A DNA stretch of 64,000 nt. It comes from Candidatus Marinacidobacterium sp. GTDB taxonomy: Bacteria; Acidobacteriota; Vicinamibacteria; Marinacidobacterales; Marinacidobacteraceae. Numbering within the stretch: position 1 is the stretch's first letter; every line of letters begins with the position of its first letter. A program made the position numbers and the translations under genes. Of this stretch, positions 30,392 to 58,382 are shown piece by piece. Location of the stretch: positions 3,204,462-3,268,461 of the forward strand of contig OZ244986.1 of NCBI GenBank assembly GCA_965223075.1. The letters are read 5' to 3'. The notes beneath the pieces are model-generated. The model did no database searches, was not told the DNA's origin, and saw only the letters and a list, made by a program, of their open reading frames with translations.

Positions 30392-30553
30392 GGCTTCTCC
30401 TAACGGATCACCCGGGCCTGTGGTTCCGGACTTCGGGCTCTCACAAGGGAATTACGCAGCCGCGCCCCAAACTCTTCATCGCCGAACCTGCCCGGAACCG
30501 GGGCCCGACCCGCATGGACCTCCATCCCCATTGCTGCGACAATGGGTCCGAAT

Positions 30554-30840: not shown

Positions 30841-30924
30841 CTTTCCCCCCGGTCAGGCGGGCGCCGAACCTCCGGTTCGCCGCCATTTGTTTTCTCGCGC
30901 TCGGCGGTACGCAGGCGGGCCTAA

Positions 30925-31165: not shown

Positions 31166-31308
31166 GAACATCCTTCAAGGCGCGCAACACCGAAAAACCG
31201 GGCTGTCCAAACCCCATCCGCACCCCCGGAATGCGTTGGGAATGAGCGGAACCCTCCCGGTACACTGACCGTTGGTCTTCCTTTCTGAACACTAGGCCGC
31301 CGAGCGCC

Positions 31309-33729
31309 TTGCCTCGTCATCCCCTGACATCCCGCAAAGCGTTCCGGATGATCGCCCTGGTGGGGTTTGCCGTGCTGGTCGGTGTTTCCCTGGCCTCTGG
31401 CAGTCAGCCCCCCATCCACGACGGACCGGCCCCTCCTCTCGCGGATAGCCGGGCGCAGGACGATTCCGACGACCTCGGACTCGCGGACCGCGGGGCCGGC
31501 AGGCTCGCCGACAGCCAGCAAGACCTCAGTTCGGACATAAGGGGCCGGATCCTCGGGCCGCCCGCCCCCGCGGCCGGGGAGGCCGTCCGCCGCGACGCCG
31601 ACGGCCGGGTAACGCTCCGCGCCTTCCGGCTCGCCGAACCGATCACCGTGGACGGGGTTCTCGACGACCCGGTCTACGAACAGGTGCCGGCGGCCGAGGG
31701 GTTTGTCCAGCAGGAGCCCAGCGAAGGCGCGCCCGCCTCGGAGGGCACCCGTGTCTGGGTGCTCTACGACGCGGACAGCCTCTACATCAGCGCGGAACTC
31801 GAAGAAGAGCACCCGGAGCGCCTGATGGCCAACGAGATGCGCCGCGACCAGCGGAACATCGACTGGGGCGACAGCTTCTCGGTCATCATCGACACCTTCT
31901 ACGACCGCCGGAACGGCTTCTTGTTCCACACGAACGCGCTGGGCGCCCTGTTCGACGCGCAGGTGACCGACGAACGGAACACGAACAGCGACTGGAACAC
32001 GGTCTGGTGGGTGAAGAGCCATCTGCTCGAAGACAGGTACACCGTGGAGATCCGGATCCCGTTCCGCTCGCTCCGTTACACCGCCGGCGGACCCCAGATC
32101 TGGGGGATCAACTTCCGCCGCCGCATCAAACACCGAAACGAACAGGTGTTCTTCACCCCGACGCCCCAGTCGTACAGCCGCGACGGATTGACCCGTCTCT
32201 CCAACGCGGCGACGCTCGTCGGCGTCGAGGCGCCCCCCGGCTCGAGACGAATGGAACTGAAGCCCTACGCGATCGGTTCCCAGAGCCACGTTCCCCTGCG
32301 GGACATCAACAACGAGTGGGCCGGCGACGTGGGCGCGGACTTCAAGTTCGGCGTCACCGACGGGCTCACCGCCGACGTGACCTGGAACACCGATTTCGCG
32401 CAGGTGGAAGACGACGAGACCCAGGTCAACCTGAGCCGCTTCAGCCTGTTCTACCCGGAAAAGCGCGAGTTTTTCCTCGAGGGACAGGGGGTCTTCGACT
32501 TCGGCGGCCGGCAAACCCGCGTCCGCCCGTTCGGAGGCGACTCTTCCGACGCTCCGATCCCGTTCTTCAGCCGGTCCATCGGCATTGCGGGCGGCAGCGT
32601 GGTACCGATCCTGGGTGGTGCGCGGCTCCACGGCCGCGCCGGCGCCTACCAGATGGGCCTCATGAACATCCAGACCGGCGCGGTGGGGGGGCTCGACGTG
32701 GAGAGCACGAACTTCAGCGCTTTCCGGATCAAGCGCGACATCTTTTCCCGGTCGAATATCGGAGTCATCGTCACCCATCGGAATGTGAGCGCCGACGGCT
32801 CCGGGGCGAATTCGCTCTACGGAATGGACGGGAACTTCGCCCCGACCGACAACGTCCGCATCAACACCTTCTACATGGCAACGAGCGAGCCCGGAGTCGA
32901 GACCGGGCACCAGGCCGCCACTTACATGGGCCAGTTCCGCTACGAGACCGACCTGATCGATGTCACCGCCGAGCGGCTCTATCTCGGTGAGGACTTCAAC
33001 CCCGGGATGGGTTTCGTCCGCCGCCGGGATTTCACCAAGAACGGCGGAAGCCTCCAGTTCTCGCCGCGCCCCCGCGGCATCAAAGCGATCCGCCAGTTCG
33101 AGTTCAAGGTGGACGCGAACAACTACGACCGTCCCGACGGCGAGATGGAGACCCGGGAATACAAGTTCGAGGCGCGGGCCATCCTGGAGAGCAGCGACCG
33201 CATCTTCCTCGATCACACCGTGACCGAGGAGCGTCTGCTCGAGGGGTTCGACCTTTCAGGCGAGGTCGGGGTGCCCGCCGGCAACTACCGTTTTGCCCGC
33301 ACCGGGGTGCGGTTGCGGATGGGATCCCACCGCCGGCTCTCGGGCTTCCTGCGCTACGAGTTCGGCGATTTCTTCGAGGGCACCCGGCAGGAAGTGAGTT
33401 ACATGGGACGCGCCGAGGTCAGCCAGCGCTTTTCCCTCGAGCCGAACATCAGCTTCAACTGGATCGAGGTGCCGGAGGGCGAGGTACGGGCGCAGGTCAG
33501 CCGGCTCCGCGCCACCTACACCGTCTCGCCCCGCAGCTTCCTGGGCGCGCTCGTCCAGTACAACTCGGCGGCGCAACTGATGTCCGCGAACATTCGCTTC
33601 CGCTGGGAGTACTCGCCGGGCAGCGACCTGTTCGTGGTCTTCAGCACGAACCGCGACGGGGACGACGGGCTCTCCGGGCTCAGCGACCGGACACTCGTCA
33701 TCAAGTTCACCCGCCTGTTCCGGTTCTAG
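31309..33729 (+). CDS. CBM9-like/DUF5916 family outer-membrane beta-barrel protein, paralogue 1 (subfamily A)
   Basis: Signal peptide; ~800 aa; C-terminal ...VKFTRLFRF with terminal Phe (OMP beta-signal); TTG start as in the paralogues; ECF-type promoter GGAAC-N17-CGTT about 35 nt upstream. Confidence 0.8.
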   Translation: MPRHPLTSRKAFRMIALVGFAVLVGVSLASGSQPPIHDGPAPPLADSRAQDDSDDLGLADRGAGRLADSQQDLSSDIRGRILGPPAPAAGEAVRRDADGRVTLRAFRLAEPITVDGVLDDPVYEQVPAAEGFVQQEPSEGAPASEGTRVWVLYDADSLYISAELEEEHPERLMANEMRRDQRNIDWGDSFSVIIDTFYDRRNGFLFHTNALGALFDAQVTDERNTNSDWNTVWWVKSHLLEDRYTVEIRIPFRSLRYTAGGPQIWGINFRRRIKHRNEQVFFTPTPQSYSRDGLTRLSNAATLVGVEAPPGSRRMELKPYAIGSQSHVPLRDINNEWAGDVGADFKFGVTDGLTADVTWNTDFAQVEDDETQVNLSRFSLFYPEKREFFLEGQGVFDFGGRQTRVRPFGGDSSDAPIPFFSRSIGIAGGSVVPILGGARLHGRAGAYQMGLMNIQTGAVGGLDVESTNFSAFRIKRDIFSRSNIGVIVTHRNVSADGSGANSLYGMDGNFAPTDNVRINTFYMATSEPGVETGHQAATYMGQFRYETDLIDVTAERLYLGEDFNPGMGFVRRRDFTKNGGSLQFSPRPRGIKAIRQFEFKVDANNYDRPDGEMETREYKFEARAILESSDRIFLDHTVTEERLLEGFDLSGEVGVPAGNYRFARTGVRLRMGSHRRLSGFLRYEFGDFFEGTRQEVSYMGRAEVSQRFSLEPNISFNWIEVPEGEVRAQVSRLRATYTVSPRSFLGALVQYNSAAQLMSANIRFRWEYSPGSDLFVVFSTNRDGDDGLSGLSDRTLVIKFTRLFRF

Positions 33730-33933
33730 CAGCCCTCCGACGAGCTCCCGGATTCCGCCGACCCCGCGTCTCTCGCCGGGTTCCGCGGCGCGCTTCGTTC
33801 ATGCGAAGGACCCGTTTTGCGGCAACCGCGAGACCTCCGCCCAGCCCCCGGAAGACGCTCGAAAGGGACGGAACCTTTCCGGTAATCTGTTCGTTGGTTT
33901 TTTGAATTCCCATCGGTCTGATCGCCGGCTCCC

Positions 33934-36363
33934 GTGATTCGCTTTTCCCCGAGTTCCCGCAGGGCGTGGCGAGGTTCCGCCGCAGGGTTTTTCTTCCTGC
34001 TGGCCGGCGGTTCGCTCGTTGCCGCGGCCGCTGAACGCATACCGGCGGAACCCGCCCCGCCCTCCTCGGACCGGCGGGTTCAGGACACTCAGGACGATCA
34101 GGATGACCTCGCCCTAACGTCCCGCGGCGCGGGCCGGCTAGCCGTTGACCAGCAAGCGCCGGTCAACTCGGGGATGGCCGGCCGCATCCTCGGGCCGCCT
34201 GCGCCCGCGGCTGGGGAAGCCGTCAGCCGCGACGCCGAAGGCGGGGTGACCCTCCGCGCCTTCCGGCTGGCCGAACCGCTCACTGTGGACGGCGTGCTCG
34301 ATGACCCGGTCTACGACCAGGTGCCGGCGGCGGAAGGATTCCTGCAGCAGGAGCCCGACGAGGGCGCCCCGGTGTCGGAGTCCACGCGCGTCTGGGTGCT
34401 CTACGACGCGGACAGCCTCTACGTCGCCGCCGAGCTGGAAGAGGACCACCCGGAGCGGCTGACGGCCGGCGAGATGCGCCGGGACCACCGGAACGTCGGC
34501 TGGAACGACAGCTTCTCGGTCATCCTCGACACCTTCTACGACCGCCGGAACGGCTTCTTGTTCCACACGAACTCCCTCGGCGCCCTGTTCGACGGCCAGG
34601 TGACCGACGAGCGGAACACGAACAGCGACTGGAACACCGTGTGGTGGGTGAAGACTCGTCAACTGGAGGATGGGTGGACGGTGGAGATCCGGATCCCGTT
34701 CCGCTCGCTCCGCTACGCGGCCGGCGGACCCCAGCTCTGGGGGATCAACTTCCGCCGCCTCATCAAGCACAAGAACGAACGGGTGTTCTTCAGCCCGACG
34801 CCCCAGTCTTACAGCCATAACGGGCTGCTGCGGCTCTCCAACGCCGCGACGCTCGTCGGTCTCGAGGCGCCCGCCGGATCGAGGCGGATGGAACTGAAGC
34901 CGTACGCGATCGGCTCGCAGAGCCACGTCCCCCTGAACGACATCCACAACGAGTGGTCGGGCGACGTCGGCGGCGACTTCAAGTTCGGCGTCACCGACGG
35001 GCTCACCGCGGACGTGACCTGGAACACCGACTTCGCGCAGGTCGAAGACGACGAGACCCAGGTCAACCTGAGCCGCTTCAGCCTGTTCTACCCGGAAAAG
35101 CGCGAGTTCTTCCTCGAGGGGCAGGGAGTTTTCGACTTCGGTGGCCGGCAGACCCGCGCCTTCGGAGGAGGCGGCTCCTCCGACGCTCCCATCCCGTTCT
35201 TCAGCCGGTCCATCGGCATTGCGGGACGCAGCGCGGTGCCGATCCTGGGTGGGGCGCGTCTCCACGGCCGCGCTGGCGCTTACACGATGGGGCTCATGAA
35301 CATCCAGACCGGCGAGGTGGCGGGCCTCGACGTGGACAGCACGAACTTCAGCGCCTTCCGGATGAAGCGCGACATCTTCGCGCGCTCCAACATCGGGGTC
35401 ATCGCCACCCACCGGAATCTGAGCGCCGACGGCTCCGGGGCGAATTCGCTCTACGGCGTGGACGGGAACTTCGCCCCGACCGACAACATCCGCATCAACA
35501 CGTTCTACATGGCGACGGCCGAGCCCGGAGTCGAGAGCGGGCACCAGGCCGCCACCTACATGGGCCAGTTCCGCTACAACACCGATCTGATCGATGTCAC
35601 CGCCGAACGCCTCTATCTCGGCGAGGACTTCAACCCGGGGATGGGCTTCGTCCGCCGCCGGGATTTCACCAAGAACGCCGGAAGCCTCCAGTTCTCGCCG
35701 CGCCCCCGCGGCATCGAGGCGATCCGCCAGTTCGAGTTCAAGGTGCAAGCGAAGAACTACGACCGTCCCGACGGCGAGATGGAGACCCGCGAATACCAGT
35801 TCGACGCGCGAGCCATCTTCGAGAGCAGCGATCGCCTCATGTTCGATCACAGCGTGACCGAAGAGCGTCTCCTCGAGGGTTTCAACCTCTCGAGTGATGT
35901 CGGGATCCCCGCCGGCAACTATCGGTTCTCCCGGACCGGGGTAAGGGTGCGGATGGGATCCCATCGCTCCTTCTCGGGCATGTTCCGCTACGAGTTCGGT
36001 GACTTCTTCGGGGGCACCCGGCAACAGGTCAGTTATTGGGGACGCGCCGAGATGAACCAGCGCTTTTCCATCGAGCCGAACATCAGCCTCAACTGGATCG
36101 AGGTGCCCGAGGGTGAGGTGCGGGCGCAGGTCAGCCGGCTGCGCGCCACCTACACCGTCTCCCCGCGGAGCTTTCTTGGCGCGCTCGTCCAGTACAACTC
36201 GGCGGCGCAACTGTTTTCCGCGAACGTGCGTTTCCGCTGGGAGTACTCACCGGGCAGCGATCTCTTCGTCGTCTTCAGCACGAACCGCGACGGGGATGAC
36301 GGGCTCTCCGGGCTCAGCGACCGGGCGCTCGTCGTCAAGTTCACGCGCCTGTTCCGGTTCTAA
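33934..36363 (+). CDS. DUF5916 family OM protein, paralogue 2 (subfamily A)
   Basis: Near-identical to paralogue 1 over long stretches (RILGPPAPAAGEAV..RDA.G.VTLRAFRLAEP); GTG start; GGAAC-N17-CGTT upstream. Confidence 0.8.
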   Translation: MIRFSPSSRRAWRGSAAGFFFLLAGGSLVAAAAERIPAEPAPPSSDRRVQDTQDDQDDLALTSRGAGRLAVDQQAPVNSGMAGRILGPPAPAAGEAVSRDAEGGVTLRAFRLAEPLTVDGVLDDPVYDQVPAAEGFLQQEPDEGAPVSESTRVWVLYDADSLYVAAELEEDHPERLTAGEMRRDHRNVGWNDSFSVILDTFYDRRNGFLFHTNSLGALFDGQVTDERNTNSDWNTVWWVKTRQLEDGWTVEIRIPFRSLRYAAGGPQLWGINFRRLIKHKNERVFFSPTPQSYSHNGLLRLSNAATLVGLEAPAGSRRMELKPYAIGSQSHVPLNDIHNEWSGDVGGDFKFGVTDGLTADVTWNTDFAQVEDDETQVNLSRFSLFYPEKREFFLEGQGVFDFGGRQTRAFGGGGSSDAPIPFFSRSIGIAGRSAVPILGGARLHGRAGAYTMGLMNIQTGEVAGLDVDSTNFSAFRMKRDIFARSNIGVIATHRNLSADGSGANSLYGVDGNFAPTDNIRINTFYMATAEPGVESGHQAATYMGQFRYNTDLIDVTAERLYLGEDFNPGMGFVRRRDFTKNAGSLQFSPRPRGIEAIRQFEFKVQAKNYDRPDGEMETREYQFDARAIFESSDRLMFDHSVTEERLLEGFNLSSDVGIPAGNYRFSRTGVRVRMGSHRSFSGMFRYEFGDFFGGTRQQVSYWGRAEMNQRFSIEPNISLNWIEVPEGEVRAQVSRLRATYTVSPRSFLGALVQYNSAAQLFSANVRFRWEYSPGSDLFVVFSTNRDGDDGLSGLSDRALVVKFTRLFRF

Positions 36364-36364
36364 C

Positions 36365-36415
36365 GGGAGCGCCGGACTTCAGGCCGGCATCGACCGCCGG
36401 AGGCGGGCGAAACTC
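36365..36415. repeat. Type-B REP-like element
   Basis: GGGAGCGCCGGACTTCAGGCCGGCATCGACCGCCGGAGGCGGGCGAAACTC directly after the stop codon. Confidence 0.7.
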
Positions 36416-36569
36416 ACGCCGCTATCCAGCCCTGAAAGCGGAACGAGGCAGTTTCGGACCCCCGGCGTCCGCCGTTCCGGCGCCCCCCGAAACGCGTTGG
36501 GAAGGGGGGCAAAATTCCGGTAAACTGGCCGTTGGTCTTCGAGTCTCCTCGCGCCGAGCGCCGGCTGCC

Positions 36570-38981
36570 GTGTATCGCCTTTTCCCGACTTCCCGCAGCG
36601 TTTGGGGAGTTTCCGCCCTCGGGTTTTCCATCCTGCTGGCCGGCGCCGCTCCCGGCGCCACGGGGCCGCCCGGCCTCGACGGACCCGGCCCCCCGCCGCC
36701 CGACCGGCGAGTCCAGGACGATCAGGACGGCTTCGCGATACCGGGCCGGGGCGCGGGCCGGCTTGCCGCCGGCCAGCAGGCGTCCGTCAGCTCGGCGATG
36801 GCCAGCCGCATCCTCGGCCCGCCGGCCCCGGAGGCCGGGGAAGCTGTCAGCCGCGACGCTGACGGCCGGGTAACGCTTCGGGCCTTCCGGCTCTCGGAAC
36901 CCATCACCGTGGACGGAGTGCTCGACGACCCGGTGTACGAACAGGTGCCGGCGGCGGACGGGTTCCTCCAGCAGGAGCCCGACGAGGGCGCTCCGGCCTC
37001 GGAGTCAACCCGCGTCTGGGTGTTTTACGACGCGGACAGCCTCTACATCGCCGCCGACCTGGAAGAAGAGCACCCGGAGCGGCTGATGGCCAGCGAGATG
37101 CGCCGCGACCACCGGAGCATCGGCTGGAACGACAGCTTCCAGTTCGTCCTCGACACCTTCTACGACCGCCGGAACGGCTTCTTGTTCCACACGAATGCGC
37201 TGGGCGCCCTCTTCGACGCCCAGGTGACCGACGAGCGCAACACGAACAGCGACTGGAACACCGTCTGGTGGGTGAAGACCCGAATTGTGGAAGACGGGTG
37301 GACGATGGAGATCCGGATTCCGTTCCGCTCCCTGCGTTACGCGGCCGGCGGAGCTCAGCTCTGGGGAATCAACTTCCAGCGCAACATCAAACACAAGAAC
37401 GAGAAAGTGTTCTTCACCGCCACGCCCCAGGCGTACAACCGGGAGGCGCTCATCCGCTTGTCCAACGCGGCGACGCTCGTGGGTCTCGAAGCGCCACCCG
37501 GGTCGCGGCGGATGGAGTTGAAGCCGTATGCGATCGGCTCGCAGTACCACGCTCCTCTACGCGACACCCTGAACGAATGGTCCGGCGACGTCGGGGCTGA
37601 CTTCAAGTTCGGCGTCACCGACGGGCTCACCGCCGACGTCACCTGGAACACCGACTTCGCACAGGTGGAAGACGACGAGACCCAGATCAACCTGAGCCGC
37701 TTCAGCCTCTTCTTCCCGGAAAAGCGCGAGTTCTTCCTCGAAGGGCAGGGGGTCTTCGACTTCGGCGGCCGCCAGACCCACCTGTTTCGGGGTCCGACCG
37801 ATGTTCCCATCCCGTTCTTCAGCCGGTCCATCGGCATCTCCGGCGGCAGCGCGGTACCGATCCTCGGGGGCGCCCGCCTCCACGGGCGAAGCGGCGCTTA
37901 CACGATGGGGCTCATGAACATCCAGACCGGGGACGTGCCGGGCATCGACGCGCAGAGCACGAATTTCAGCGCCTTCCGGCTGAAGCGCGACATCTTCTCG
38001 CGGTCCAACATCGGGGTCATCGCCACCCACCGGAACCTGAACGCCGACGGCTCCGGGGCCAACTCCCTCTACGGCGTGGACGGGAACTTCAACCCGACGG
38101 AACACCTCCGCATCAACACCTTCTACATGGCTACGACCGAGCCTGGGGTTGACACCGGACACCAGGCCGCCAGCTACATGGGCCAGTTCCGCTACGACAC
38201 CGACCTGTTCGACGTCTCCGCCGAGCGCCTCTATCTGGGCGAGGATTTCAACCCGGGGATGGGATTCGTCCGCCGCCGGGATTTCACGAAGGACGGTGCC
38301 TCCGTCCAGTTCTCACCACGCCCTCGCGGCATCAAGGCGATCCGGCAGTTCGAGTTCAAGGCGCAGGTGGACAACTACGATCGTCTCGACGGAGAGATGG
38401 AGACTCGCGAGTACCGGTTCGAAGGCAGGGCCATCCTCGAGAGCAGCGACCGTCTGGTCATGGACTACTCCAGGACCGAGGAGCGCCTGCTCGACGGGTT
38501 CAACCTCTCCAGCGAGGTCACGGTTCCGGCTGGCGATTACCGCTTCTCCCGTACCGGCGTCCGTTTCTGGCTGGGAACCCACCGCGCGGTTTCGGGATAT
38601 TTGCGCTACGAGTTCGGCGACTTCTTCGGAGGCAGCCGGCGGGAAGTGAGTTACTGGGGCCGCGCCGAGGTCAACCAGCGTTTCTCCATGGAGCCGAACA
38701 TCAGCCTCAACTGGATCACGGTTCCCCAGGGCGAGGTGCGGGCGCAGGTCAGCCGCCTGCGGGCGACCTACACCGTCTCCCCGCGCAGCTTCGTGGGCGC
38801 CCTCGTCCAGTACAACTCGGCGGCGCAGCTCGTTTCCGCGAACGTGCGGTTCCGCTGGGAATATTCGCCGGGCAGCGACGTGTTCGTCGTCTTCAGCACG
38901 AACCGTGACGGGGACGACGGGCTCAGCGGGCTGACCGATCGGGCGCTGGTCGTCAAGTTCACCCGCCTGTTCCGATTCTGA
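36570..38981 (+). CDS. DUF5916 family OM protein, paralogue 3 (subfamily A)
   Basis: GTG start; same domain order and C-terminal FRF; upstream CGTT -10 element conserved but -35 degenerate. Confidence 0.8.
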   Translation: MYRLFPTSRSVWGVSALGFSILLAGAAPGATGPPGLDGPGPPPPDRRVQDDQDGFAIPGRGAGRLAAGQQASVSSAMASRILGPPAPEAGEAVSRDADGRVTLRAFRLSEPITVDGVLDDPVYEQVPAADGFLQQEPDEGAPASESTRVWVFYDADSLYIAADLEEEHPERLMASEMRRDHRSIGWNDSFQFVLDTFYDRRNGFLFHTNALGALFDAQVTDERNTNSDWNTVWWVKTRIVEDGWTMEIRIPFRSLRYAAGGAQLWGINFQRNIKHKNEKVFFTATPQAYNREALIRLSNAATLVGLEAPPGSRRMELKPYAIGSQYHAPLRDTLNEWSGDVGADFKFGVTDGLTADVTWNTDFAQVEDDETQINLSRFSLFFPEKREFFLEGQGVFDFGGRQTHLFRGPTDVPIPFFSRSIGISGGSAVPILGGARLHGRSGAYTMGLMNIQTGDVPGIDAQSTNFSAFRLKRDIFSRSNIGVIATHRNLNADGSGANSLYGVDGNFNPTEHLRINTFYMATTEPGVDTGHQAASYMGQFRYDTDLFDVSAERLYLGEDFNPGMGFVRRRDFTKDGASVQFSPRPRGIKAIRQFEFKAQVDNYDRLDGEMETREYRFEGRAILESSDRLVMDYSRTEERLLDGFNLSSEVTVPAGDYRFSRTGVRFWLGTHRAVSGYLRYEFGDFFGGSRREVSYWGRAEVNQRFSMEPNISLNWITVPQGEVRAQVSRLRATYTVSPRSFVGALVQYNSAAQLVSANVRFRWEYSPGSDVFVVFSTNRDGDDGLSGLTDRALVVKFTRLFRF

Positions 38982-39058
38982 CGCGGAGCTCCGCACCGCC
39001 GTACGGGTGGTGTTTCGGCGCGCTCGCCGCCTGTCTGATCTGGGTCCCGGCCGCCGCT

Positions 39059-41287
39059 ATGCCGGCGCCGGGGCAGCCCCCGCCGGCCCCCGTGATCCAC
39101 GGTCCCGCGCCGCCGGATCCCCCGGCGATGATCCGGCGGGACGACCAGGGTGGCGCCACCATTCGGGCCGTCCGCCTCCAAGAGCCGCTCGACTTCGACG
39201 GCCGCCTCGATGAAGCCATCTACGAGCAGGTTCCCGGAATCAGCGATTTCATCCAGACCGAGCCGCTCGAAGGAGCACCGGCCACCGAAAAGACCGAGGT
39301 CTGGGTCTTTTTCGACGACGAGGCGATCTACATCGCCGGACGCTGCTGGGACACCCAGCCCCACCGGATCGTGGCCACCGAACTCCGGCGCGACCACGGG
39401 AGCATCTGGCTCAACCAGCACCTGGCCGTCACCTTCGACACCTTCTACGACCGCCGGAACGCCTTCATCTTTTACCTGAACCCCCTGGGCGGGTTCTTCG
39501 ACGGCCTCATCACGGACGAACGGAACTTCAACCGCGACTGGACCGCGGTATGGGATTCCCGGACCGCGCGTTTCGAGGGCGGCTGGACGACCGAACTGCG
39601 GTTTCCGTTCAAGACCCTCCGCTACCCCGCCGCGGGCCCACAGGTCTGGGGCATCAACTTCCGCCGGGTCGTCCGCTGGAAGAACGAAATCTCCTACCTG
39701 ACCCGGCTCCCGGCCGCCCTCGGGATCTGGTCGATCACCAAGGTGAGTTCCTATGCGACCCTGGTCGGCCTCGAGGCGCCGCCCAGCTCCCGGACCATAG
39801 AGGTGAAGCCGTACCTCACGGGTGACGCCGCCGGGGCCCAGGTCGAGAGCGGCGCCCTCGACCGGGACTTCGGGGGCGATTTCGGGGTGGACGCCAAGGT
39901 CGGGATCACCAGTGGGCTGACTGCCGATCTGACCTGGAACACCGACTTCGCGCAGGTCGAGGCGGACGCCCAACAGATCAACCTGACCCGTTTCAGCCTG
40001 TTCTTCCCCGAAAAGCGCGAGTTCTTTCTCGAAGGGCAGGGGCTCTTCGCCTTCGGGACCTCGGAGCGCACCCCGCGCGCCTCGAGCCGCAGGTTCGGGG
40101 CGCCGAGCAGCGTCCCGCTCCTCTTCTTCAGCCGCCGGATCGGAATCGCCGGAAACCAGGTGGCGCCGATCCGTGGCGGCGCCCGGGTGACGGGAAAACT
40201 CGGCGACTTCGGCGTCGGTGCGCTCGCGGTCCGTAGCGGCGAGAGCGTCGCCGCGGGCGCCCCGGAAACCGACTTCTCGGTATTCCGGCTGAAGCGGGAC
40301 ATCCTGGGCCGCAGCACCGTCGGGGTGATGGGCACCTACCGCTCGGGCACCGGAGACGGCCGGGGGAGCAACGCCGCCTACGGGATGGACGCGCGTTTCG
40401 GGTTCTACGAGAACCTCGACATCCGCAGCTACGCGGCCTGGACGCAGAACGAACACGACGACCGGACCGGCATGAGCTACCGGGGCCAGCTCGACTACCA
40501 GGCCGACCGTTACGGACTCCAATTCGAGCGGCTGGTGGTCGGCGAGGGCTTCGATCCCGGGCTCGGCTTCCTGCGCCGCCGGGACTTCCAGCGCAACTAC
40601 GCGGAGGCGCGCTTCAGTCCCCGGCCGCGCTCGATCTCCTGGCTGCGGAAGATCGGTGGGACCGGCAGTCTCGACTACACCACGGACAACGACGGGAATC
40701 TGGAAACCCGGATCTTCGCGCTCCGGTCCGACGTCGAGTTGGAGAACGGGGACAGCGCCCAGTTCCAGTTGGCCCGGAACCGGGAGGTGCTTCACGAGGA
40801 ATTCGGGCTGGCCGGCGACCTTGCGGTGGCCGCCGGCGCCCACGACTTCGACTACGCCCGCCTCAGCTACCGGGCCGGGCCCCAGCGGCCGATCTCGGGG
40901 ACCTTCGCCTATCAGCAGGGCGGGTTCTTCTCGGGGACCCGGCGCGAACTCGCCTGGCGCGGCCGGCTCGAGGTCGTTCCCCACCTCATCGTCGAGCCCA
41001 TCATCTCTCTGAACTGGATCGCCCTTCCGGACGGCGAGTACGACACCCGGCTGGTCGCTTCGAGAATCAACTACAACCTGTCTCCCCGCAGCTTTCTTGC
41101 CGCGTTCCTCCAGTACAACAGCGCCGCGAACAGCCTTTCGACGAATATCAGGTTCCGCTGGGAGTATCAGCCGGGCAGCGACATCTATCTCGTCTACAAC
41201 TCGGTCCGCGACACCCTGATGCCCGGCTATCCCGAACTCGACACGCAGGCGTTCATCGTCAAGTTCACGCGTCTCTTCCGCTTCTGA
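39059..41287 (+). CDS. DUF5916 family OM protein, paralogue 4 (divergent subfamily B); 5' end uncertain, possible start-codon loss
   Basis: The in-frame upstream codons encode a signal-like segment (WCFGALAACLIWVPAAA) but contain no ATG/GTG/TTG; the position equivalent to the TTG start of paralogues 5-7 reads TTC; the first ATG (39059) lies after the signal region. Confidence 0.6.
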   Translation: MPAPGQPPPAPVIHGPAPPDPPAMIRRDDQGGATIRAVRLQEPLDFDGRLDEAIYEQVPGISDFIQTEPLEGAPATEKTEVWVFFDDEAIYIAGRCWDTQPHRIVATELRRDHGSIWLNQHLAVTFDTFYDRRNAFIFYLNPLGGFFDGLITDERNFNRDWTAVWDSRTARFEGGWTTELRFPFKTLRYPAAGPQVWGINFRRVVRWKNEISYLTRLPAALGIWSITKVSSYATLVGLEAPPSSRTIEVKPYLTGDAAGAQVESGALDRDFGGDFGVDAKVGITSGLTADLTWNTDFAQVEADAQQINLTRFSLFFPEKREFFLEGQGLFAFGTSERTPRASSRRFGAPSSVPLLFFSRRIGIAGNQVAPIRGGARVTGKLGDFGVGALAVRSGESVAAGAPETDFSVFRLKRDILGRSTVGVMGTYRSGTGDGRGSNAAYGMDARFGFYENLDIRSYAAWTQNEHDDRTGMSYRGQLDYQADRYGLQFERLVVGEGFDPGLGFLRRRDFQRNYAEARFSPRPRSISWLRKIGGTGSLDYTTDNDGNLETRIFALRSDVELENGDSAQFQLARNREVLHEEFGLAGDLAVAAGAHDFDYARLSYRAGPQRPISGTFAYQQGGFFSGTRRELAWRGRLEVVPHLIVEPIISLNWIALPDGEYDTRLVASRINYNLSPRSFLAAFLQYNSAANSLSTNIRFRWEYQPGSDIYLVYNSVRDTLMPGYPELDTQAFIVKFTRLFRF

Positions 41288-42825: not shown

Positions 42826-42868
42826 GACCAATGTGGTCGAGCTAGTTCCGGCATCCCGGTTTCGCGCC

Positions 42869-45202
42869 TTGTCCCGCCCTGCGCATCGTGCCGTTTTCGC
42901 CGGCGCCGCCCTGATCGTTCCGGCCTTGCTGTGGGGGCAATCCGGAGACCCCGGGGAGCGCCAGGACGGGCAGGGCTCGGCGCCGGCGCCCACCTTCGCG
43001 GTGCGCGGACCCGCTCCCCCCGACCTCCCCGAGATGGTCCGCCGCGACGAGGCCGGCGGGGCCACCATGCGCGCCACCCGTCTCACCGAGCCGTTCGAAC
43101 TGGACGGCCGCCTTGACGACGCCATCTACGACCGGGTGCCCGGGGTGGGCGGTTTCATCCAGGCGCTGCCCCTCGAAGGCGAACCGGCCACCGAGCCGAC
43201 CGACGTCTGGGTCTTCTACGACGACGAAGCGGTGTACATCGCCGGCAGGTGCTGGGACAGCCAGCCCCACCGCATGGTGGCGAGCGAGATGCGGCGGGAC
43301 AACTTCGGCATCTTCAACAACGAGAACCTCGCGGTCATCCTGGACACCTTCTACGACCGCCGGAACGCCTTCTTCTTCTACATGAACCCGATCGGCGGGT
43401 TCTTCGACGGCCTCATCGCGGACGAGAACCCCCCCAACCGCGACTGGACCGCGGTCTGGGACTCCCGGGCGGCCCGGTTCGAAGACGGCTGGACCATGGA
43501 GATGCGGATCCCGTTCAAGACGCTGCGCTACGCGAGCGGAGGCCCCCAGGTCTGGGGGATCAACTTCCGCCGCATCGTGCGCTGGAAGAACGAGCTGTCC
43601 TTCCTCACCCGGGTCCCCGCGGCCCTCGGACCCCGCGCCATCACCAAGATCAGTTCGGCAGGAACGCTCGTGGGCCTGGAGGCGCCCACCAGTTCCCGGA
43701 CCGTCGAGGTGAAGCCCTACCTCATCGGGGACGCCGCCGGAATCCGCACGGGCGCCGGCGGGCTGGAACGGGACTACGGCGGCGACTTCGGGGTGGACGC
43801 CAAGGTCGGGATCACCAGCGGCCTCATCGCCGACCTCACCTGGAATACCGACTTCGCCCAGGTGGAGGCCGACGCCCAACAGATCAACCTCACCCGCTTC
43901 AGCCTCTTCTTTCCCGAGAAGCGGGAGTTCTTCCTCGAAGGGCAGGGGACCTTCAGCTTCGGCACTTCGAGCCGCAGCCCTCCGGCGGGATCGACGCGTA
44001 GCTTCGGCCCGCCCAGCAGCACCCCGGTGCTCTTCTTCAGCCGCCAGATCGGGATCGCCGACGGCCAGATCGTGCCGATCCTCGGCGGCGGACGGGTGAC
44101 CGGCAAGCTCGGCGACTTCGGGGTCGGGGCGCTTGCCATCCGCACCGGAGGGAACAACGCTGCGGGCGCCCCGGAGACCGACTTCTTGGTCCTGCGGCTG
44201 AAGCGGGACATCCTGAACCGCAGCACCGTGGGCGTCATGGGCACCTACCGCTCCCACACCGCCAGCGGGCGGGGACACAACTTCGCCTATGGGATGGACG
44301 CCCGCTTCGGGTTCTTCGAAAACCTCACCATCCAGTCCTACGCCGCCTGGACCCGGAACGAACTCGAGGACGGGACCGGGATGAGCTACCTGGGCCAGCT
44401 CGAATACAACGGCGACCGGTACGGGCTGAAGACGGAACGGCTCGTGGTCGGAGACGGCTTCGATCCCGGCATCGGGTTCCTGCGCCGCCGGGATTTCCAG
44501 CGCAACTACGCCGAGGCGCGCTTCAGCCCCCGGCCGCATTCGATCTCCTGGCTGCGCCAGATCGGCTGGACCGGCAGCATCGACCACACCACCGACAACG
44601 AGGCGGTCCTCGAGACCCGGATCCTCCAACTGCGGACGGAGGTCGAACTCGAAAACGGGGACCGGCTGAACGTGGACGCCGCCCGGAACCACGAGGTTCT
44701 CAGCGAAGAGTTCGTCCTGGACGCTGACGAAGGGATCGGCGTGGGGGTGGGTCCTTACGACTTCGACCACCTCAGGGTCGCCTACCAGGCGGGGCCGCAG
44801 CGTCCCATCTCGGGAAACTTCGCCTTCCAGCAGGGGGGCTTCTTCTCCGGGACGCGCCGCGAGGCAGTGTGGCGCGGACGGGTCGAGGTGACGACGCGCT
44901 TCTCCCTCGAGCCCACCCTCTCGATGAACTGGATCGACCTCCCGACCGGCGAGTACGACACCAACCTGATCGCGTCCCGGGTCAACTACACGCTCTCGCC
45001 GCGCAGCTTTCTCGCAGCGTTCCTCCAGTACAACACCTCCGCGAACAACCTCTCGACGAACGTCCGCTTCCGTTGGGAGTACGAACCGGGCAGCGACCTC
45101 TACGTCGTCTACAACTCGCTGCGGGACACCCTGGCGCCGGGCTACCCCGAACTGAACACCCAGTCGTTCATCGTCAAGTTCACGCGTCTCTTCCGGTTCT
45201 GA
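42869..45202 (+). CDS. DUF5916 family OM protein, paralogue 5 (subfamily B)
   Basis: Start reassigned to in-frame TTG 42869 (MSRPAHRAVFAGAALIVPALLWGQS), matching the TTG-MSRS... starts of paralogues 6 and 7 and removing the overlap with the YhcG gene; the track ORF begins at 42776. Confidence 0.75.
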   Translation: MSRPAHRAVFAGAALIVPALLWGQSGDPGERQDGQGSAPAPTFAVRGPAPPDLPEMVRRDEAGGATMRATRLTEPFELDGRLDDAIYDRVPGVGGFIQALPLEGEPATEPTDVWVFYDDEAVYIAGRCWDSQPHRMVASEMRRDNFGIFNNENLAVILDTFYDRRNAFFFYMNPIGGFFDGLIADENPPNRDWTAVWDSRAARFEDGWTMEMRIPFKTLRYASGGPQVWGINFRRIVRWKNELSFLTRVPAALGPRAITKISSAGTLVGLEAPTSSRTVEVKPYLIGDAAGIRTGAGGLERDYGGDFGVDAKVGITSGLIADLTWNTDFAQVEADAQQINLTRFSLFFPEKREFFLEGQGTFSFGTSSRSPPAGSTRSFGPPSSTPVLFFSRQIGIADGQIVPILGGGRVTGKLGDFGVGALAIRTGGNNAAGAPETDFLVLRLKRDILNRSTVGVMGTYRSHTASGRGHNFAYGMDARFGFFENLTIQSYAAWTRNELEDGTGMSYLGQLEYNGDRYGLKTERLVVGDGFDPGIGFLRRRDFQRNYAEARFSPRPHSISWLRQIGWTGSIDHTTDNEAVLETRILQLRTEVELENGDRLNVDAARNHEVLSEEFVLDADEGIGVGVGPYDFDHLRVAYQAGPQRPISGNFAFQQGGFFSGTRREAVWRGRVEVTTRFSLEPTLSMNWIDLPTGEYDTNLIASRVNYTLSPRSFLAAFLQYNTSANNLSTNVRFRWEYEPGSDLYVVYNSLRDTLAPGYPELNTQSFIVKFTRLFRF

Positions 45203-45300: not shown

Positions 45301-45389
45301 GGCGAAGAAGCCAACCGTCGAAGTGGTTCTGAAGCCGCTTCTGACCCGGGCTCCGGCGTAGAGTTCCGGCGACCCCAGAGCCCTCTCCG

Positions 45390-47717
45390 TTGTCCCGTTC
45401 CGCGTTCCCGTTCGCACTCCTGGCGCTGATCGTTCCGGCCGCCGGGTGGGGTCAGCCCGGAGAGCTCGGCGAACGGCAGGACGGCCAGGGGGCGGCGCCC
45501 GAACCGGCATTCGTGGTGCGCGGCCCCGCGCCGCCCGAACTGCCCGAGATGGTGCGCCGGGACGATCTCGGCGGGGCCACGATGCGCGCCACCCGCATCG
45601 ACGAGCCGTTCGAACTCGACGGCCGTCTCGACGACGCGATCTACGACCGCGTGCCCGGGGTGGGCGGGTTCATCCAGGCGCTGCCGCTCGAGGGCGAACC
45701 CGCCACCGAGCCGACTGAGGTCTGGGTCTTCTACGACGACGACACCCTCTACGTCGCCGGCCGCTGCTGGGACAGCCAGCCCGACCGGATGCTGGCTACG
45801 GAAATGCGGCGCGACCACTTCGGCATCCACAACAACGAGAACCTGGCCGTCATCCTGGACACCTTCTACGACCGCCGAAACGCCTTCTTCTTCTACCTGA
45901 ACCCGATCGGCGGGTTCTTCGATGGCCTCATCGTGGACGAGCGGAACGTGAACCGCGACTGGACCGCGGTCTGGGACTCGCGGGCGGCCCGTTTCGAAAA
46001 CGGCTGGACCATGGAGATGGCGATCCCGTTCAAGACACTGCGCTACGCCGGCGGTGGTCCCCAGGTCTGGGGGATCAACTTCCGCCGCATCGTGCGCTGG
46101 AAGAACGAATATTCCTATCTGACCCGGCTTCCCGCCGCCCTGGGGCCGCGCGCGATCACCAAGATCAGCTCGGCGGGCACCCTGGTGGGCCTCGAGGCGC
46201 CGGCCAGCTCCCGCACCGTCGAGGTGAAGCCGTACCTCATCGGCGACGCCGCCGGGATCCGCTCGGCCGCCGGCACGCTGGAGCGGGACTACGGCAATGA
46301 TTTCGGGGTGGACGCCAAGGTCGGGATCACCAACGCACTCACCGCCGACCTCACCTGGAACACCGACTTCGCCCAGGTGGAGGCGGACGCCCAGCAGATC
46401 AACCTCACCCGGTTCAGCCTCTTCTTTCCCGAAAAGCGGGAGTTCTTTCTGGAAGGGCAGGGGATCTTCAGCTTCGGCACGGCGTCGCGGGCGCCTCCGT
46501 CCGGGTCCACGCGCAGCTTTGGCCAGCCGAGCAGCACTCCGGTGCTCTTCTTCAGCCGCCAGATCGGGATCGCCGGCGGTCAGGTTGTGCCGATCCTCGG
46601 CGGGGGACGGGTGACCGGGAAGCTCGGTGACTTTGGCGTCGGGGCGCTCGCGATCCGCAGCGGCGCGAACAGCGCCGCGGGCGCTCCGGAGACCGACTTC
46701 TCGGCCCTGCGGCTGAAGCGCGACATTCTGAACCGCAGCACGGTGGGCGCCATGGGCACCTATCGCTCCCACACCACTAGCGGGCTGGGGCGGAACTTTG
46801 CCTGGGGGATCGACGCCCGGTTCGGGTTTTTCGAGCATCTCGACATCCAGACCTACGCTGCCTGGACGCAGAACGAACTCGAAGACGAGACCGGAATGAG
46901 CTATCTGGGCCAGCTCGATTACAACGGCGACCGCTACGGGCTCAAGACCGAACGGCTGGTCGTCGGGGACGGATTCGATCCGGGAATCGGGTTCCTGCGC
47001 CGCCGGGACTTTCAGCGGAACTACGCCGAGGCGCGCTTCAGCCCCCGGCCGCACTCGATCTCCTGGCTCCGCAAGATCGGCTGGACCGGCAGTCTCGACT
47101 ACACCACCGATAACGAATCGGTCCTGGAAACCCGGATCTTCTCGCTGCGCACCGAGGTCGAACTCGAGAACGGGGACCGGCTGAACCTGAACGCCGCCCG
47201 GAACCACGAAGTACTGAGCGAAGCGTTCACGCTGGATGCGGACGAAGGAATCGGCGTGGGGGTGGGTCCGTACGACTTCGACCACGTCCGAGTCAGCTAC
47301 CAGGGCGGGCCGCAGCGTCCGGTCTCGGGTAACTTCGCCTACCAGCAGGGAGGATTCTTCTCCGGGACCCGTCGCGAGTTCGCTTGGCGCGGACGCGTGG
47401 AGATGACGACGCGTTTCTCCCTCGAGCCCATCCTCTCGCTGAACCGGATCGCGCTTCCGACGGGCGACTACGACACCAGCCTGCTCGCGTCCCGGATCAC
47501 CTACACGCTCTCGCCCCGCAGCTTCCTTGCAGCCTTTCTCCAGTACAACACCACCGCAAACAGCCTTTCGACGAACGTCCGTTTCCGCTGGGAGTACGAA
47601 CCGGGAAGCGATTTCTACATGGTCTACAACTCGCTGCGCGACACGTTGATGCCCGGCTATCCCGAGTTGAACACCCAATCCTTCATCGTCAAGTTCACTC
47701 GCCTCTTCCGCTTCTAA
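45390..47717 (+). CDS. DUF5916 family OM protein, paralogue 6 (subfamily B)
   Basis: TTG start; signal MSRSAFPFALLALIVPAAGWGQP; ends ...VKFTRLFRF; conserved upstream GGCGTAGAGTTCCGG motif. Confidence 0.8.
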   Translation: MSRSAFPFALLALIVPAAGWGQPGELGERQDGQGAAPEPAFVVRGPAPPELPEMVRRDDLGGATMRATRIDEPFELDGRLDDAIYDRVPGVGGFIQALPLEGEPATEPTEVWVFYDDDTLYVAGRCWDSQPDRMLATEMRRDHFGIHNNENLAVILDTFYDRRNAFFFYLNPIGGFFDGLIVDERNVNRDWTAVWDSRAARFENGWTMEMAIPFKTLRYAGGGPQVWGINFRRIVRWKNEYSYLTRLPAALGPRAITKISSAGTLVGLEAPASSRTVEVKPYLIGDAAGIRSAAGTLERDYGNDFGVDAKVGITNALTADLTWNTDFAQVEADAQQINLTRFSLFFPEKREFFLEGQGIFSFGTASRAPPSGSTRSFGQPSSTPVLFFSRQIGIAGGQVVPILGGGRVTGKLGDFGVGALAIRSGANSAAGAPETDFSALRLKRDILNRSTVGAMGTYRSHTTSGLGRNFAWGIDARFGFFEHLDIQTYAAWTQNELEDETGMSYLGQLDYNGDRYGLKTERLVVGDGFDPGIGFLRRRDFQRNYAEARFSPRPHSISWLRKIGWTGSLDYTTDNESVLETRIFSLRTEVELENGDRLNLNAARNHEVLSEAFTLDADEGIGVGVGPYDFDHVRVSYQGGPQRPVSGNFAYQQGGFFSGTRREFAWRGRVEMTTRFSLEPILSLNRIALPTGDYDTSLLASRITYTLSPRSFLAAFLQYNTTANSLSTNVRFRWEYEPGSDFYMVYNSLRDTLMPGYPELNTQSFIVKFTRLFRF

Positions 47718-58337: not shown

Positions 58338-58382
58338 GTCCACCCAAACGAAAGGGGCGTCCCCACGGTTCCCGCTCAGGAG

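What the first reader, a model, noticed from the sequence alone, without database searches (positions are those of the whole stretch)
31255..36545. ECF-sigma-type promoters (GGAAC-N17-CGTT) in front of subfamily-A paralogues 1 and 2; conserved GAGTTCCG motif before near-cognate TTG starts of subfamily B
Upstream of paralogues 1 and 2 the sequence reads GGAAC-17 nt-CGTT about 35 nt before the start codon. This is the classic ECF (SigE/SigH/SigW-like) architecture. Paralogue 3 keeps the CGTT -10 but its -35 is GGCAA. Subfamily-B genes 5, 6 and 7 all begin with TTG-TCC-CG (MSR...) about 20 nt after a conserved ..TAGAGTTCCG.. element. The whole array therefore seems to be under specialised, possibly envelope-stress-linked, regulation and uses non-ATG starts throughout (TTG, GTG, GTG, ?, TTG, TTG, TTG).
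Basis: seen in the sequence. Interest (0 to 1): 0.5.

Follow-up and report, generated by a model that had tools for sequence, protein, structure and literature searches.

The report
ECF-type promoter motif before two paralogues
Two of seven tandem outer-membrane-type genes in an uncultured marine acidobacterium carry a textbook alternative-sigma (ECF) promoter motif that also precedes a neighbouring efflux-pump operon and a secreted-protein operon, while the other copies have ordinary-looking promoters; this is a plausible small stress regulon of a well-known kind.

Summary
GGAAC-N17-CGTT sits at 31248-31273 and 33870-33895, 35 and 38 nt before the TTG and GTG starts of DUF5916 paralogues 1 and 2. 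Paralogue 3 has GGCAA-N17-CGTT. TAGAGTTCCG lies 20-21 nt before the TTG starts of paralogues 6 and 7.

The ECF reading is partly supported.
- The exact motif occurs 5 times in the window, against 0.66 expected. Four hits lie just upstream of genes on the right strand.
- It is conserved across related Vicinamibacteria genomes while its 17-nt spacer diverges. This holds for first-copy DUF5916 genes, an RND efflux operon and a secreted-protein operon.
- It matches the experimentally defined actinobacterial SigE/SigH consensus.

It does not cover the whole array.
- A TAnnnT hexamer about 45-50 nt before the start is the element shared by nearly all subfamily-A genes in about 15 genomes. It often follows a TTCGCA-like box 18-19 nt upstream. 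This looks like a housekeeping promoter that the ECF motif overlaps in paralogues 1 and 2.
- Subfamily B has a TAGAGT -10-like element.
- Paralogue 4 has no promoter and probably starts at a CTG overlapping paralogue 3's stop codon.

No ECF sigma gene was found. Non-ATG starts are supported by orthologues. This is a new member of a known kind, of modest interest.

The parts
31248..31273 (+). ECF-type promoter motif before paralogue 1. GGAAC is 31248-31252 and CGTT is 31270-31273. By analogy with SigE/SigH geometry the TSS would be near 31283, giving a 5'UTR of about 26 nt.
   Evidence: The motif is conserved in first-copy orthologues of 10 other loci.
33870..33895 (+). ECF-type promoter motif before paralogue 2. 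GGAAC is 33870-33874 and CGTT is 33892-33895.
   Evidence: It is conserved in L001/L061 and L003; L002 has CGTC.
36508..36533 (+). Degenerate version before paralogue 3 (GGCAA-N17-CGTT). The -35 is not conserved in orthologues.
   Evidence: L061 has GGCAC and L002 has AGAAC.
31233..31266 (+). Housekeeping-type reading for P1: box GCGTTGGGAA (TTGGGA 31236-31241), 19 nt, TACACT 31261-31266. It overlaps the ECF spacer.
   Evidence: Anchored comparison of 35 subfamily-A upstream regions.
33854..33888 (+). Housekeeping-type reading for P2: CTCGAA 33858-33863, 19 nt, TAATCT 33883-33888.
36494..36526 (+). Housekeeping-type reading for P3: GCGTTGGGAA (TTGGGA 36497-36502), 18 nt, TAAACT 36521-36526.
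30402..30427 (-). GGAAC-N17-CGTT 10 nt before the ATG (30391) of the RND membrane-fusion gene. This gene is first in the operon 22926-30391(-).
   Evidence: Conserved in L001 and L005; the L005 spacer is about 29% identical.
58347..58372 (-). GGAAC-N17-CGTT 9 nt before ATGATG (58337) of a secreted protein gene of unknown function (57765-58337). A second exported-protein gene follows at 57195-57758.
   Evidence: L038 has GGAAC and L075 has AGAAC, with divergent spacers.
45359..45368 (+). Subfamily-B element TAGAGTTCCG before P6. TAGAGT is read as a -10-like hexamer, 25 nt before TTG 45390.
50092..50101 (+). Subfamily-B element TAGAGTTCCG before P7, 24 nt from TAGAGT to TTG 50122.
42843..42850 (+). 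Degenerate subfamily-B element TAGTTCCG before P5. It lies 17 nt downstream of the stop of the inserted YhcG nuclease gene.
31309..33729 (+). Paralogue 1 (subfamily A; DUF5916 + CBM9-like; TTG start).
   Evidence: The TTG aligns with ATG in the L002, L008 and L009 orthologues.
33934..36363 (+). Paralogue 2 (subfamily A; GTG start; frame opens only 12 nt upstream).
36570..38981 (+). Paralogue 3 (subfamily A; GTG start).
38978..41287 (+). Paralogue 4 (subfamily B). The probable CTG start at 38978-38980 overlaps P3's TGA (CTGA). It has no promoter region of its own.
   Evidence: The same arrangement occurs in L061, L004, L008 and L039.
42869..45202 (+). Paralogue 5 (subfamily B). TTG start is assigned by homology; earlier in-frame starts exist from 42776.
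45390..47717 (+). Paralogue 6 (subfamily B; TTG start).
50122..52449 (+). Paralogue 7 (subfamily B; TTG start).

Best explanation
The window comes from a Vicinamibacteria acidobacterium close to 'Candidatus Marinacidobacterium'. It holds seven tandem DUF5916 genes, all with signal peptides.

Paralogues 1 and 2:
- Each carries a promoter of the ECF-sigma class, with -35 GGAAC, a 17-nt spacer and -10 CGTT.
- The sigma factor that reads it is encoded elsewhere and is unidentified.
- By analogy with SigE/SigH promoters, where the C of GGAAC is at -31, transcription would start about 10 nt after CGTT. That gives 5'UTRs of about 26-29 nt.
- The same motif precedes the adjacent RND efflux operon and a secreted-protein operon. 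There the predicted start falls on or 1 nt before the ATG, so those mRNAs would be leaderless.
- Together these genes look like a small envelope-related ECF regulon.

Overlap with an older promoter:
- In paralogues 1 and 2 the ECF motif lies over a housekeeping-type promoter, a TT(C/G)G(G/C)A box 18-19 nt before a TAnnnT hexamer.
- That housekeeping-type element is what is conserved before paralogue 3 and before most subfamily-A genes in related genomes.

Subfamily B:
- P6 and P7 carry a TAGAGT -10-like element without a recognisable -35. P5 has a degenerate TAGTTC variant.
- Paralogue 4 has no promoter. It is translationally coupled to paralogue 3 through a CTGA stop-start overlap.

Status of each step:
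- Shown: the motifs, their positions, their conservation and their enrichment.
- Inferred: sigma dependence, transcription start sites, leaderless transcripts and any stress link.
For: Enrichment:
- The exact N17 motif occurs 5 times against 0.66 expected.
- N17 is the only spacing enriched among 8-30, with 26 hits against about 8.5 over 663 kb.
- Four of the 5 window hits lie 9-38 nt upstream of start codons on the correct strand. Relaxed patterns add no further genes.

Conservation with divergent spacers:
- RND membrane-fusion gene: window, L001 and L005 keep CGGAAC and CCGTT. The L005 spacer matches at about 5 of 17 positions.
- Secreted-protein gene: window, L038 and L075 keep GAAC and CGTT with about 8 of 17 spacer matches.
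- First-copy DUF5916 genes keep GGAAC-N17-(C/T)GTT in 11 loci. In L009 the overlapping TACACT has become CCCACC but GGAAC and CGTT remain.

Match to a defined consensus:
- The motif is identical to the SigH/SigE-dependent consensus GGAAC-N17-18-cGTT, with C at -31. That study includes promoters whose TSS is 0-1 nt from the start codon and genes for membrane and secreted proteins (PMC10012870).
- That geometry places the TSS at the A of ATG 58337 and 1 nt before ATG 30391. Both genes start with ATG, as leaderless mRNAs generally require (established knowledge).

Housekeeping-type layer:
- A single TAnnnT sits about 40-50 nt (mostly 44-51) before the start in 35 of 38 subfamily-A upstream regions.
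- The A2' copies show TTCGCA-N18-TATAGT with non-conserved spacers.
- A canonical TTGTCG-N17-TACAAT before HigB shows that E. coli-like promoters occur in this genome.
Against: - No transcription data are available and no ECF sigma or anti-sigma gene was found in 64 kb or in the scanned flanks.
- In the efflux and secreted-protein genes the bases between CGTT and ATG look like Shine-Dalgarno sequences (AGGAGAAGCC, TGGGTGGAC) and are conserved. An ECF-initiated leaderless transcript would not include them.
- In P1 and P2 the spacer is itself well conserved among first-copy orthologues, so much of the box conservation could be shared ancestry.
- Within the window the promoter block is about as similar between paralogues (57-66%) as 4-fold synonymous sites (63-72%).
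- Related copies with intact genes have lost both boxes (L003 first copy, L079, A2', most A3), so the motif is dispensable.
- Intergenic DNA here is richer in GGAAC because of REP-like repeats. Whole-window shuffles therefore underestimate chance hits in intergenic DNA.
- One N17 hit (48581-48606, minus strand) has no obvious gene.
Confidence: 0.5

Rival explanations
1. Only the housekeeping-type promoter is functional, that is the TT(C/G)GnA box, 18-19 nt, then TAnnnT. The GGAAC in its spacer and the CGTT in its discriminator or start region are conserved for other reasons or by descent. The hits before the efflux and secreted-protein genes are then 5'UTR sequence next to their ribosome-binding sites.
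For: - TAnnnT is the one element shared by nearly all subfamily-A upstream regions across about 15 genomes. Its hexamers vary but always fit the pattern (TACACT, TAATCT, TAAACT, TAGAAT, TATAGT).
- The A2' copies show the classic signature of conserved -35 and -10 with a free spacer.
- GGAAC and CGTT are absent from most copies.
- SD-like sequences follow CGTT in the two non-DUF5916 cases.
- GC-rich bacteria such as mycobacteria commonly use TANNNT with weak -35 elements (established knowledge).
Against: - The spacer is 19 nt in P1 and P2, and the E. coli-type consensus scan finds nothing there.
- L009 lost TACACT but kept GGAAC-N17-CGTT before an intact gene.
- This reading does not explain why exactly N17 is enriched.
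- It does not explain why the boxes survive spacer turnover before two unrelated operons at 9-10 nt from the ATG.
- The secreted-protein gene has no TAnnnT upstream.
Confidence: 0.27
2. GGAAC-N17-CGTT is the operator of a DNA-binding regulator, either a repressor or an activator, rather than a sigma recognition motif. It overlaps or follows the real promoters of a few envelope genes.
For: - In P1 and P2 the motif brackets the TAnnnT hexamer.
- In the efflux gene it lies downstream of a conserved GCGTAATTCC element at -47.
- Both positions are typical for repressor sites. Efflux operons are often repressor-controlled (established knowledge).
Against: - The motif is asymmetric, neither a palindrome nor a direct repeat. 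A rigid 17-nt gap with free sequence is the hallmark of -35/-10 recognition rather than of a dimeric regulator.
- No regulator gene adjoins any of the loci.
- The motif is identical to a defined ECF consensus.
Confidence: 0.1
3. The shared upstream sequences are only leftovers of recent tandem duplication, and the other hits are chance. On this reading no specific regulatory element exists.
For: Within the window the promoter block is no more similar between paralogues than synonymous sites are. One of 100 shuffles reaches 5 hits.
Against: - The distal parts of the same intergenic regions no longer align, whereas the proximal 60-nt block does.
- The elements are retained across genomes whose proteins are only 70-80% identical, and across copies whose spacers differ.
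- The TAnnnT position is constant to within a few nucleotides.
Confidence: 0.05

Closest known systems
Actinobacterial SigE/SigH-dependent promoters (Corynebacterium glutamicum, Mycobacterium tuberculosis): GGAAC-N17-18-cGTT
   Same: - The -35 and -10 boxes and the spacing are identical (GGAAC, 17 nt, CGTT), including the C that corresponds to position -31.
- Targets there include membrane and secreted proteins.
- Some of those promoters give transcripts that start 0-1 nt from the start codon.
- Some genes combine a primary-sigma promoter with an ECF promoter (PMC10012870).
   Different: - The phylum differs (Acidobacteriota, and didermic judging by the RND and OMP-type genes).
- No sigma or anti-sigma partner has been identified.
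- There is no experimental TSS.
- The target set seen so far is only three transcription units.
E. coli sigma-E (RpoE) envelope-stress promoters (-35 GGAACTT, -10 TCnAA/GTC)
   Same: Both have a GGAAC -35 element recognised by ECF region 4 and a regulon centred on envelope components (established knowledge; structures cited in PMC10012870).
   Different: The -10 here is CGTT, not TCTGA-like. RpoE chiefly drives OMP-assembly factors and sRNAs that repress OMPs, rather than OMP genes themselves.
Primary-sigma promoters of GC-rich bacteria (TANNNT -10 with weak or absent -35, as in mycobacteria and corynebacteria)
   Same: - A TAnnnT hexamer sits at a fixed distance before nearly all subfamily-A genes, and TAGAGT before subfamily-B genes.
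- The -35 is weak or missing.
   Different: - The spacer to the TTCGCA-like box is 18-19 nt rather than 17.
- No TSS data exist for any Vicinamibacteria, so the clade's own consensus is unknown.
Translational coupling by overlapping stop and start codons (ATGA/GTGA type)
   Same: Paralogue 4's reading frame begins inside paralogue 3's TTCTGA, with a 4-nt overlap and no intergenic DNA. This is conserved in five genomes.
   Different: The overlapping codon is CTG, a rare near-cognate start in bacteria. Its use is inferred only from the in-frame signal peptide.

Membership tests
ECF-sigma-dependent promoter (GGAAC / CGTT class) | A bipartite motif with an AAC-containing -35 (GGAAC) and a CGT-containing -10, at a fixed spacing of 16-17 nt | tested here: met
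   P1, P2, the efflux operon and the secreted-protein gene all have GGAAC-N17-CGTT. The motif is identical to the published consensus.
ECF-sigma-dependent promoter (GGAAC / CGTT class) | Boxes conserved among orthologues while the spacer sequence is free and its length fixed | tested here: met
   Met for the efflux and secreted-protein genes. Only partly informative for P1 and P2, because their spacer is also conserved.
ECF-sigma-dependent promoter (GGAAC / CGTT class) | The motif recurs before several functionally related genes, forming a regulon | tested here: met
   Three independent transcription units in 64 kb, all encoding exported or envelope proteins. N17-specific enrichment is shown. 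The whole genome could not be scanned.
ECF-sigma-dependent promoter (GGAAC / CGTT class) | A cognate ECF sigma (usually with an anti-sigma) is present and typically autoregulated from the same motif | tested here: inconclusive
   There is no Sigma70_r2/r4 protein among the window's genes. Among the eight ORFs checked in the flanks upstream of first-copy genes, there was only a sub-threshold r4 hit in a small HTH protein of L080.
ECF-sigma-dependent promoter (GGAAC / CGTT class) | Transcription starts about 10 nt after the -10 box and depends on the ECF sigma | not testable with these tools
   This needs 5'-end mapping or in vitro transcription.
Primary-sigma (sigma-70 type) promoter | A -10 hexamer fitting TAnnnT at a constant position | tested here: met
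   35 of 38 subfamily-A upstream regions have one, mostly 44-51 nt (range -30 to -68, with approximate start coordinates) before the start. Subfamily B has TAGAGT in 9 of 13.
Primary-sigma (sigma-70 type) promoter | A TTGACA-like -35 placed 17 +/- 1 nt upstream | tested here: inconclusive
   TTCGCA-N18 in the A2' copies and TTGGGA-N18 before P3, but N19 before P1 and P2. No -35 exists for subfamily B or most A3 copies. The consensus scan finds no site at the E. coli threshold.
DUF5916 / CBM9-like exported proteins (the genes being regulated) | A Pfam DUF5916 match above the gathering score | tested here: met
   All seven paralogues score 46-63 bits against a cutoff of 22.6. CBM9_1 is at or just below its threshold (22.6-24.4 bits, cutoff 23.4) in subfamily A only. 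There is no NCBIfam or PDB relative.

The most novel reading that the evidence does not exclude
An uncharacterised ECF sigma factor of sponge- or marine-associated Vicinamibacteria controls a compact envelope regulon. It transcribes an RND efflux operon and a secreted-protein operon as leaderless mRNAs and switches on only the first one or two members of a seven-gene DUF5916 outer-membrane array. The remaining paralogues run on housekeeping promoters, and one is expressed by reinitiation at a CTG that overlaps the upstream stop codon. Promoter type, rather than protein sequence, would then be what differentiates the paralogues.
Probability: 0.3. Interest if true: 0.45.

Novelty: new member of a known kind. 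Interest (0 to 1): 0.3.

Why it matters
Nothing is known experimentally about promoters, sigma regulons or translation starts in Vicinamibacteria, or in the uncultured 'Marinacidobacterium' lineage. If the motif is a real ECF promoter, it gives a ready search pattern for defining one stress regulon in these genomes and for finding its sigma factor through autoregulation. It would also show that tandem outer-membrane paralogues have diverged in regulation. The consistent weak start codons (TTG, GTG, probably CTG) suggest that translation of these large exported proteins is kept low. These are useful annotations, but they fit established principles and would not surprise a specialist.

Tried and rejected
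- The E. coli-type sigma-70 and terminator scan of 30400-42900 found no promoter at the paralogue upstream regions and no excess of terminators.
- Rfam on the whole window found only tRNA-Val, with no riboswitch or leader RNA.
- I looked for an ECF sigma or anti-sigma gene in all sizeable window ORFs and in the flanks of the first-copy genes of seven related loci. None was found.
- Relaxed motifs (GAAC-N17-CGT, GGAAn-N17-nGTT) before the 31 window genes added no further members.
- I looked for a -35 box, a hairpin or an antisense ECF motif around the subfamily-B TAGAGTTCCG element and found nothing consistent (by eye). Searching the 10-mer with mismatches gave only noise.
- The metagenome scan for more orthologues gave only three usable loci.
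- Literature searches found nothing on DUF5916 and no TSS study in Acidobacteria.
- NCBIfam and PDB sequence searches of the proteins returned nothing.
- Sigma-54 and a LexA-type palindrome were considered and dropped, because the motif has neither GG-N10-GC nor dyad symmetry.
Full report
**What is there**

The window has about 67% G+C. Its closest relatives are metagenome-assembled genomes of Vicinamibacteria labelled 'Candidatus Marinacidobacterium'. The best match to paralogue 1 is 95% identical at the protein level (OZ252286.1).

Seven plus-strand genes between 31.3 and 52.4 kb all match Pfam DUF5916. The first three also match CBM9_1 at or just below its gathering threshold (22.6-24.4 bits against a cutoff of 23.4). 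They fall into two subfamilies:
- Subfamily A is P1-P3, 79-83% identical to each other.
- Subfamily B is P4-P7, about 45% identical to subfamily A.

Six of the seven have clear N-terminal signal peptides from their first canonical start. Mobile and defence genes interrupt the array:
- a YhcG/DUF1016 nuclease gene lies between P4 and P5;
- a HigBA module lies between P6 and P7;
- a large SIR2-domain gene follows P7.

The same A-A-A-B-B-B-B array occurs in many related genomes. That supplied 38 subfamily-A and about 13 subfamily-B upstream regions for comparison.

**Checking the observation**

- P1: GGAAC-17 nt-CGTT at 31248-31273, 35 nt before TTG 31309.
- P2: GGAAC-17 nt-CGTT at 33870-33895, 38 nt before GTG 33934.
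- P3: GGCAA-17 nt-CGTT at 36508-36533.
- P6 and P7: TAGAGTTCCG 21 and 20 nt before TTG-TCC-CG.
- P5: the variant TAGTTCCG, 18 nt before its TTG.

The exact N17 motif occurs five times in the window, against 0.66 expected from shuffles. I also scanned every spacing from 8 to 30. Seventeen was the only outlier, with 5 hits against about 0.8 in the window and 26 against about 8.5 over 663 kb of window plus related loci.

**Evidence that GGAAC-N17-CGTT is a real bipartite signal**

Four of the five window hits lie just upstream of a start codon on the correct strand. They precede:
- P1 and P2;
- the membrane-fusion gene that heads an RND efflux operon (30427-30402, minus strand, 10 nt before ATG 30391);
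- a gene for a secreted protein of unknown function (58372-58347, minus strand, 9 nt before ATGATG at 58337).

Both non-DUF5916 sites are conserved in related genomes while their spacers have turned over.
- The efflux site keeps CGGAAC and CCGTT in L001 and L005. The L005 spacer matches at about 5 of 17 positions.
- The secreted-protein site keeps (G/A)GAAC and CGTT in L038 and L075, with about 8 of 17 spacer matches.

Among first-copy DUF5916 genes, GGAAC-N17-(C/T)GTT is present in 11 loci. In L009 the hexamer TACACT inside the spacer has mutated to CCCACC, yet both boxes remain before an intact gene.

The motif equals the experimentally defined SigH/SigE consensus of Corynebacterium glutamicum, GGAAC-N17-18-cGTT, which that study says is identical to the mycobacterial SigE consensus. 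The C of GGAAC is at -31 there (PMC10012870). That geometry puts CGTT at -13 to -10.
- For the secreted-protein gene, the predicted start falls exactly on the A of the first ATG.
- For the efflux gene, it falls one base before the ATG.
- Both genes use ATG, which leaderless mRNAs generally need.
- The cited study lists SigH/SigE promoters whose start sites are 0-1 nt from the start codon.
- For P1 and P2 the same geometry predicts 5'UTRs of about 26 and 29 nt.

**Evidence that this is not the whole story**

I anchored 35 subfamily-A upstream regions from about 15 genomes on a common hexamer. The most widely shared feature is a single TAnnnT, which lies about 40-50 nt (mostly 44-51) before the start codon in 35 of 38 regions. 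The hexamers are TACACT, TAATCT, TAGTCT, TAAACT, TAGAAT and TATAGT.

A box GCGTT(C/G)G(G/C)AA lies 18-19 nt upstream of it in most lineages. The second copies of more distant genomes read TTCGCA-18 nt-TATAGT with unrelated spacers, which is the signature of a primary-sigma promoter.

GGAAC and CGTT are missing from those copies. They are also missing from most third copies, from the first copy of L003 and from L079. The -35 position before P3 varies among its orthologues (GGCAA, GGCAC, AGAAC).

So the ECF-type boxes are confined to the first copy, and to the second copy in the closest genomes. There they overlap an older housekeeping-type promoter whose spacer is a suboptimal 19 nt. An E. coli-threshold scan does not call these sites. 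A canonical TTGTCG-17 nt-TACAAT before HigB shows that such promoters exist in this genome.

**Subfamily B and paralogue 4**

The conserved core before B genes is (G/C)GTAGAGTTC, present in 9 of 13 orthologous regions. TAGAGT usually lies 22-25 nt before the TTG. It closely resembles the GCTAGAATTC element before third-copy A genes, so I read it as a -10-like hexamer. No -35 box or hairpin accompanies it. In two genomes it lies only 7-9 nt before the start, so this assignment is weak.

Paralogue 4 has no upstream region. Its frame, including a good signal peptide, opens at CTG 38978-38980, which overlaps P3's TGA. The same CTGA overlap with an in-frame signal peptide and no canonical start is found in L061, L004, L008 and L039. 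P4 is therefore most likely co-transcribed with P3 and initiated at CTG by coupling.

**Start codons**

- P1's TTG aligns with ATG in the L002, L008 and L009 orthologues, and the following residues are conserved as protein.
- P2's frame opens only 12 nt before its GTG. P3's GTG is the first canonical start in its frame and is conserved.
- The subfamily-B TTG is retained in 10 of 12 orthologues while the second codon varies (TCC, ACC, GCC, TTC, CCC).
- P5's TTG is assigned by homology only, because earlier in-frame starts overlap the inserted nuclease gene.
- The series is therefore TTG, GTG, GTG, probably CTG, TTG, TTG, TTG. Because of shared descent this represents about three or four independent events.

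**Weighing the explanations**

I put about 0.5 on the composite model: ECF-type promoters before P1 and P2 that form a small envelope regulon, layered on housekeeping-type promoters.

The main counter-arguments are:
- there are no transcription data and no sigma gene has been found;
- SD-like, conserved sequences lie between CGTT and the ATG of the two putative leaderless genes;
- the P1 and P2 spacers are themselves conserved;
- paralogue-to-paralogue similarity of the block within the window is no higher than at synonymous sites;
- REP-like repeats enrich intergenic DNA in GGAAC.

The rival explanations are:
- the housekeeping-only reading, at about 0.27;
- a regulator-operator reading, at about 0.1;
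- pure duplication residue, at about 0.05.

**Novelty**

The motif class, dual promoters, weak start codons and stop-start coupling are all known principles. What is new is their occurrence in an unstudied lineage and the apparent regulatory split within a paralogue array. I rate this as a new member of a known kind, with interest about 0.3.

Noticed in passing
window 38975-39061; also L061 6265-6360, L004 7821-7910, L008 7794-7890, L039 3271-3370: Paralogue 4 has no ATG, GTG or TTG before its signal peptide. Its frame opens at a CTG that overlaps paralogue 3's TGA (TTCTGA). The same layout is kept in five genomes, which suggests CTG initiation by termination-reinitiation.
   Followed up: partly
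window 350(-), 436(-), 6324, 22799(-), 22885(-), 30963, 31047, 31108, 41380, 45255, 58458, 59800, 60033(-), 61641: A REP-like intergenic repeat of about 80 nt has at least 14 copies. It contains two hairpins (GGAACGCC-stem-loop-stem-GGCA, then CCGCGGCCCGCAGGGCCGCG) with compensatory stem changes between copies. Three copies sit between tRNA-Val and paralogue 1.
   Followed up: partly
window 30402-30427(-) and 58347-58372(-): The same GGAAC-N17-CGTT motif lies 10 and 9 nt before the ATGs of an RND efflux operon and a secreted-protein operon. The predicted transcripts would be leaderless even though SD-like sequences lie in between.
   Followed up: yes
window 48581-48606(-): A fifth exact GGAAC-N17-CGTT lies at the 3' end of a dubious glycine-rich ORF, antisense to the HigBA module, with no obvious downstream gene.
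   Followed up: no
window 47830-47880: HigB is preceded by a near-consensus sigma-70 promoter (TTGTCG-17 nt-TACAAT) that ends 6 nt before its TTG. The HEPN/DUF499 gene has TACGCT 8 nt before its ATG. Both suggest leaderless transcripts in this organism.
   Followed up: no
window 8065-21032 and 52533-56826: A defence-island-like cluster includes an SNF2/NOV_C helicase, a TIR protein, a DUF1156 methyltransferase, an Mrr nuclease and a HEPN_Swt1/DUF499 protein. A separate 1261-aa SIR2_2 protein and a PIN protein flank the paralogue array.
   Followed up: no
window 41293-42825 and 47878-49520: The paralogue array is interrupted by a YhcG/DUF1016 PD-(D/E)XK nuclease gene and by a HigB/HigA module plus an HTH_73 ORF. 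Related genomes have short intergenic spacers at the corresponding junctions (about 25-30 nt in L037 and L054).
   Followed up: partly
L001 2700-3000 (OZ252286.1): In the closest genome the paralogue-1 orthologue aligns only from residue 37. Its upstream is replaced by a REP copy and a sequence that looks like a minus-strand tRNA 3' end. That copy has lost its signal peptide and promoter.
   Followed up: no
window 30428-30553: The divergent region between the efflux operon and tRNA-Val holds further conserved blocks (GGCGATGAAGAGTT and GCGTAATTCC on the minus strand) shared with L001 and L005. They may be the tRNA promoter or a housekeeping promoter for the efflux operon.
   Followed up: no
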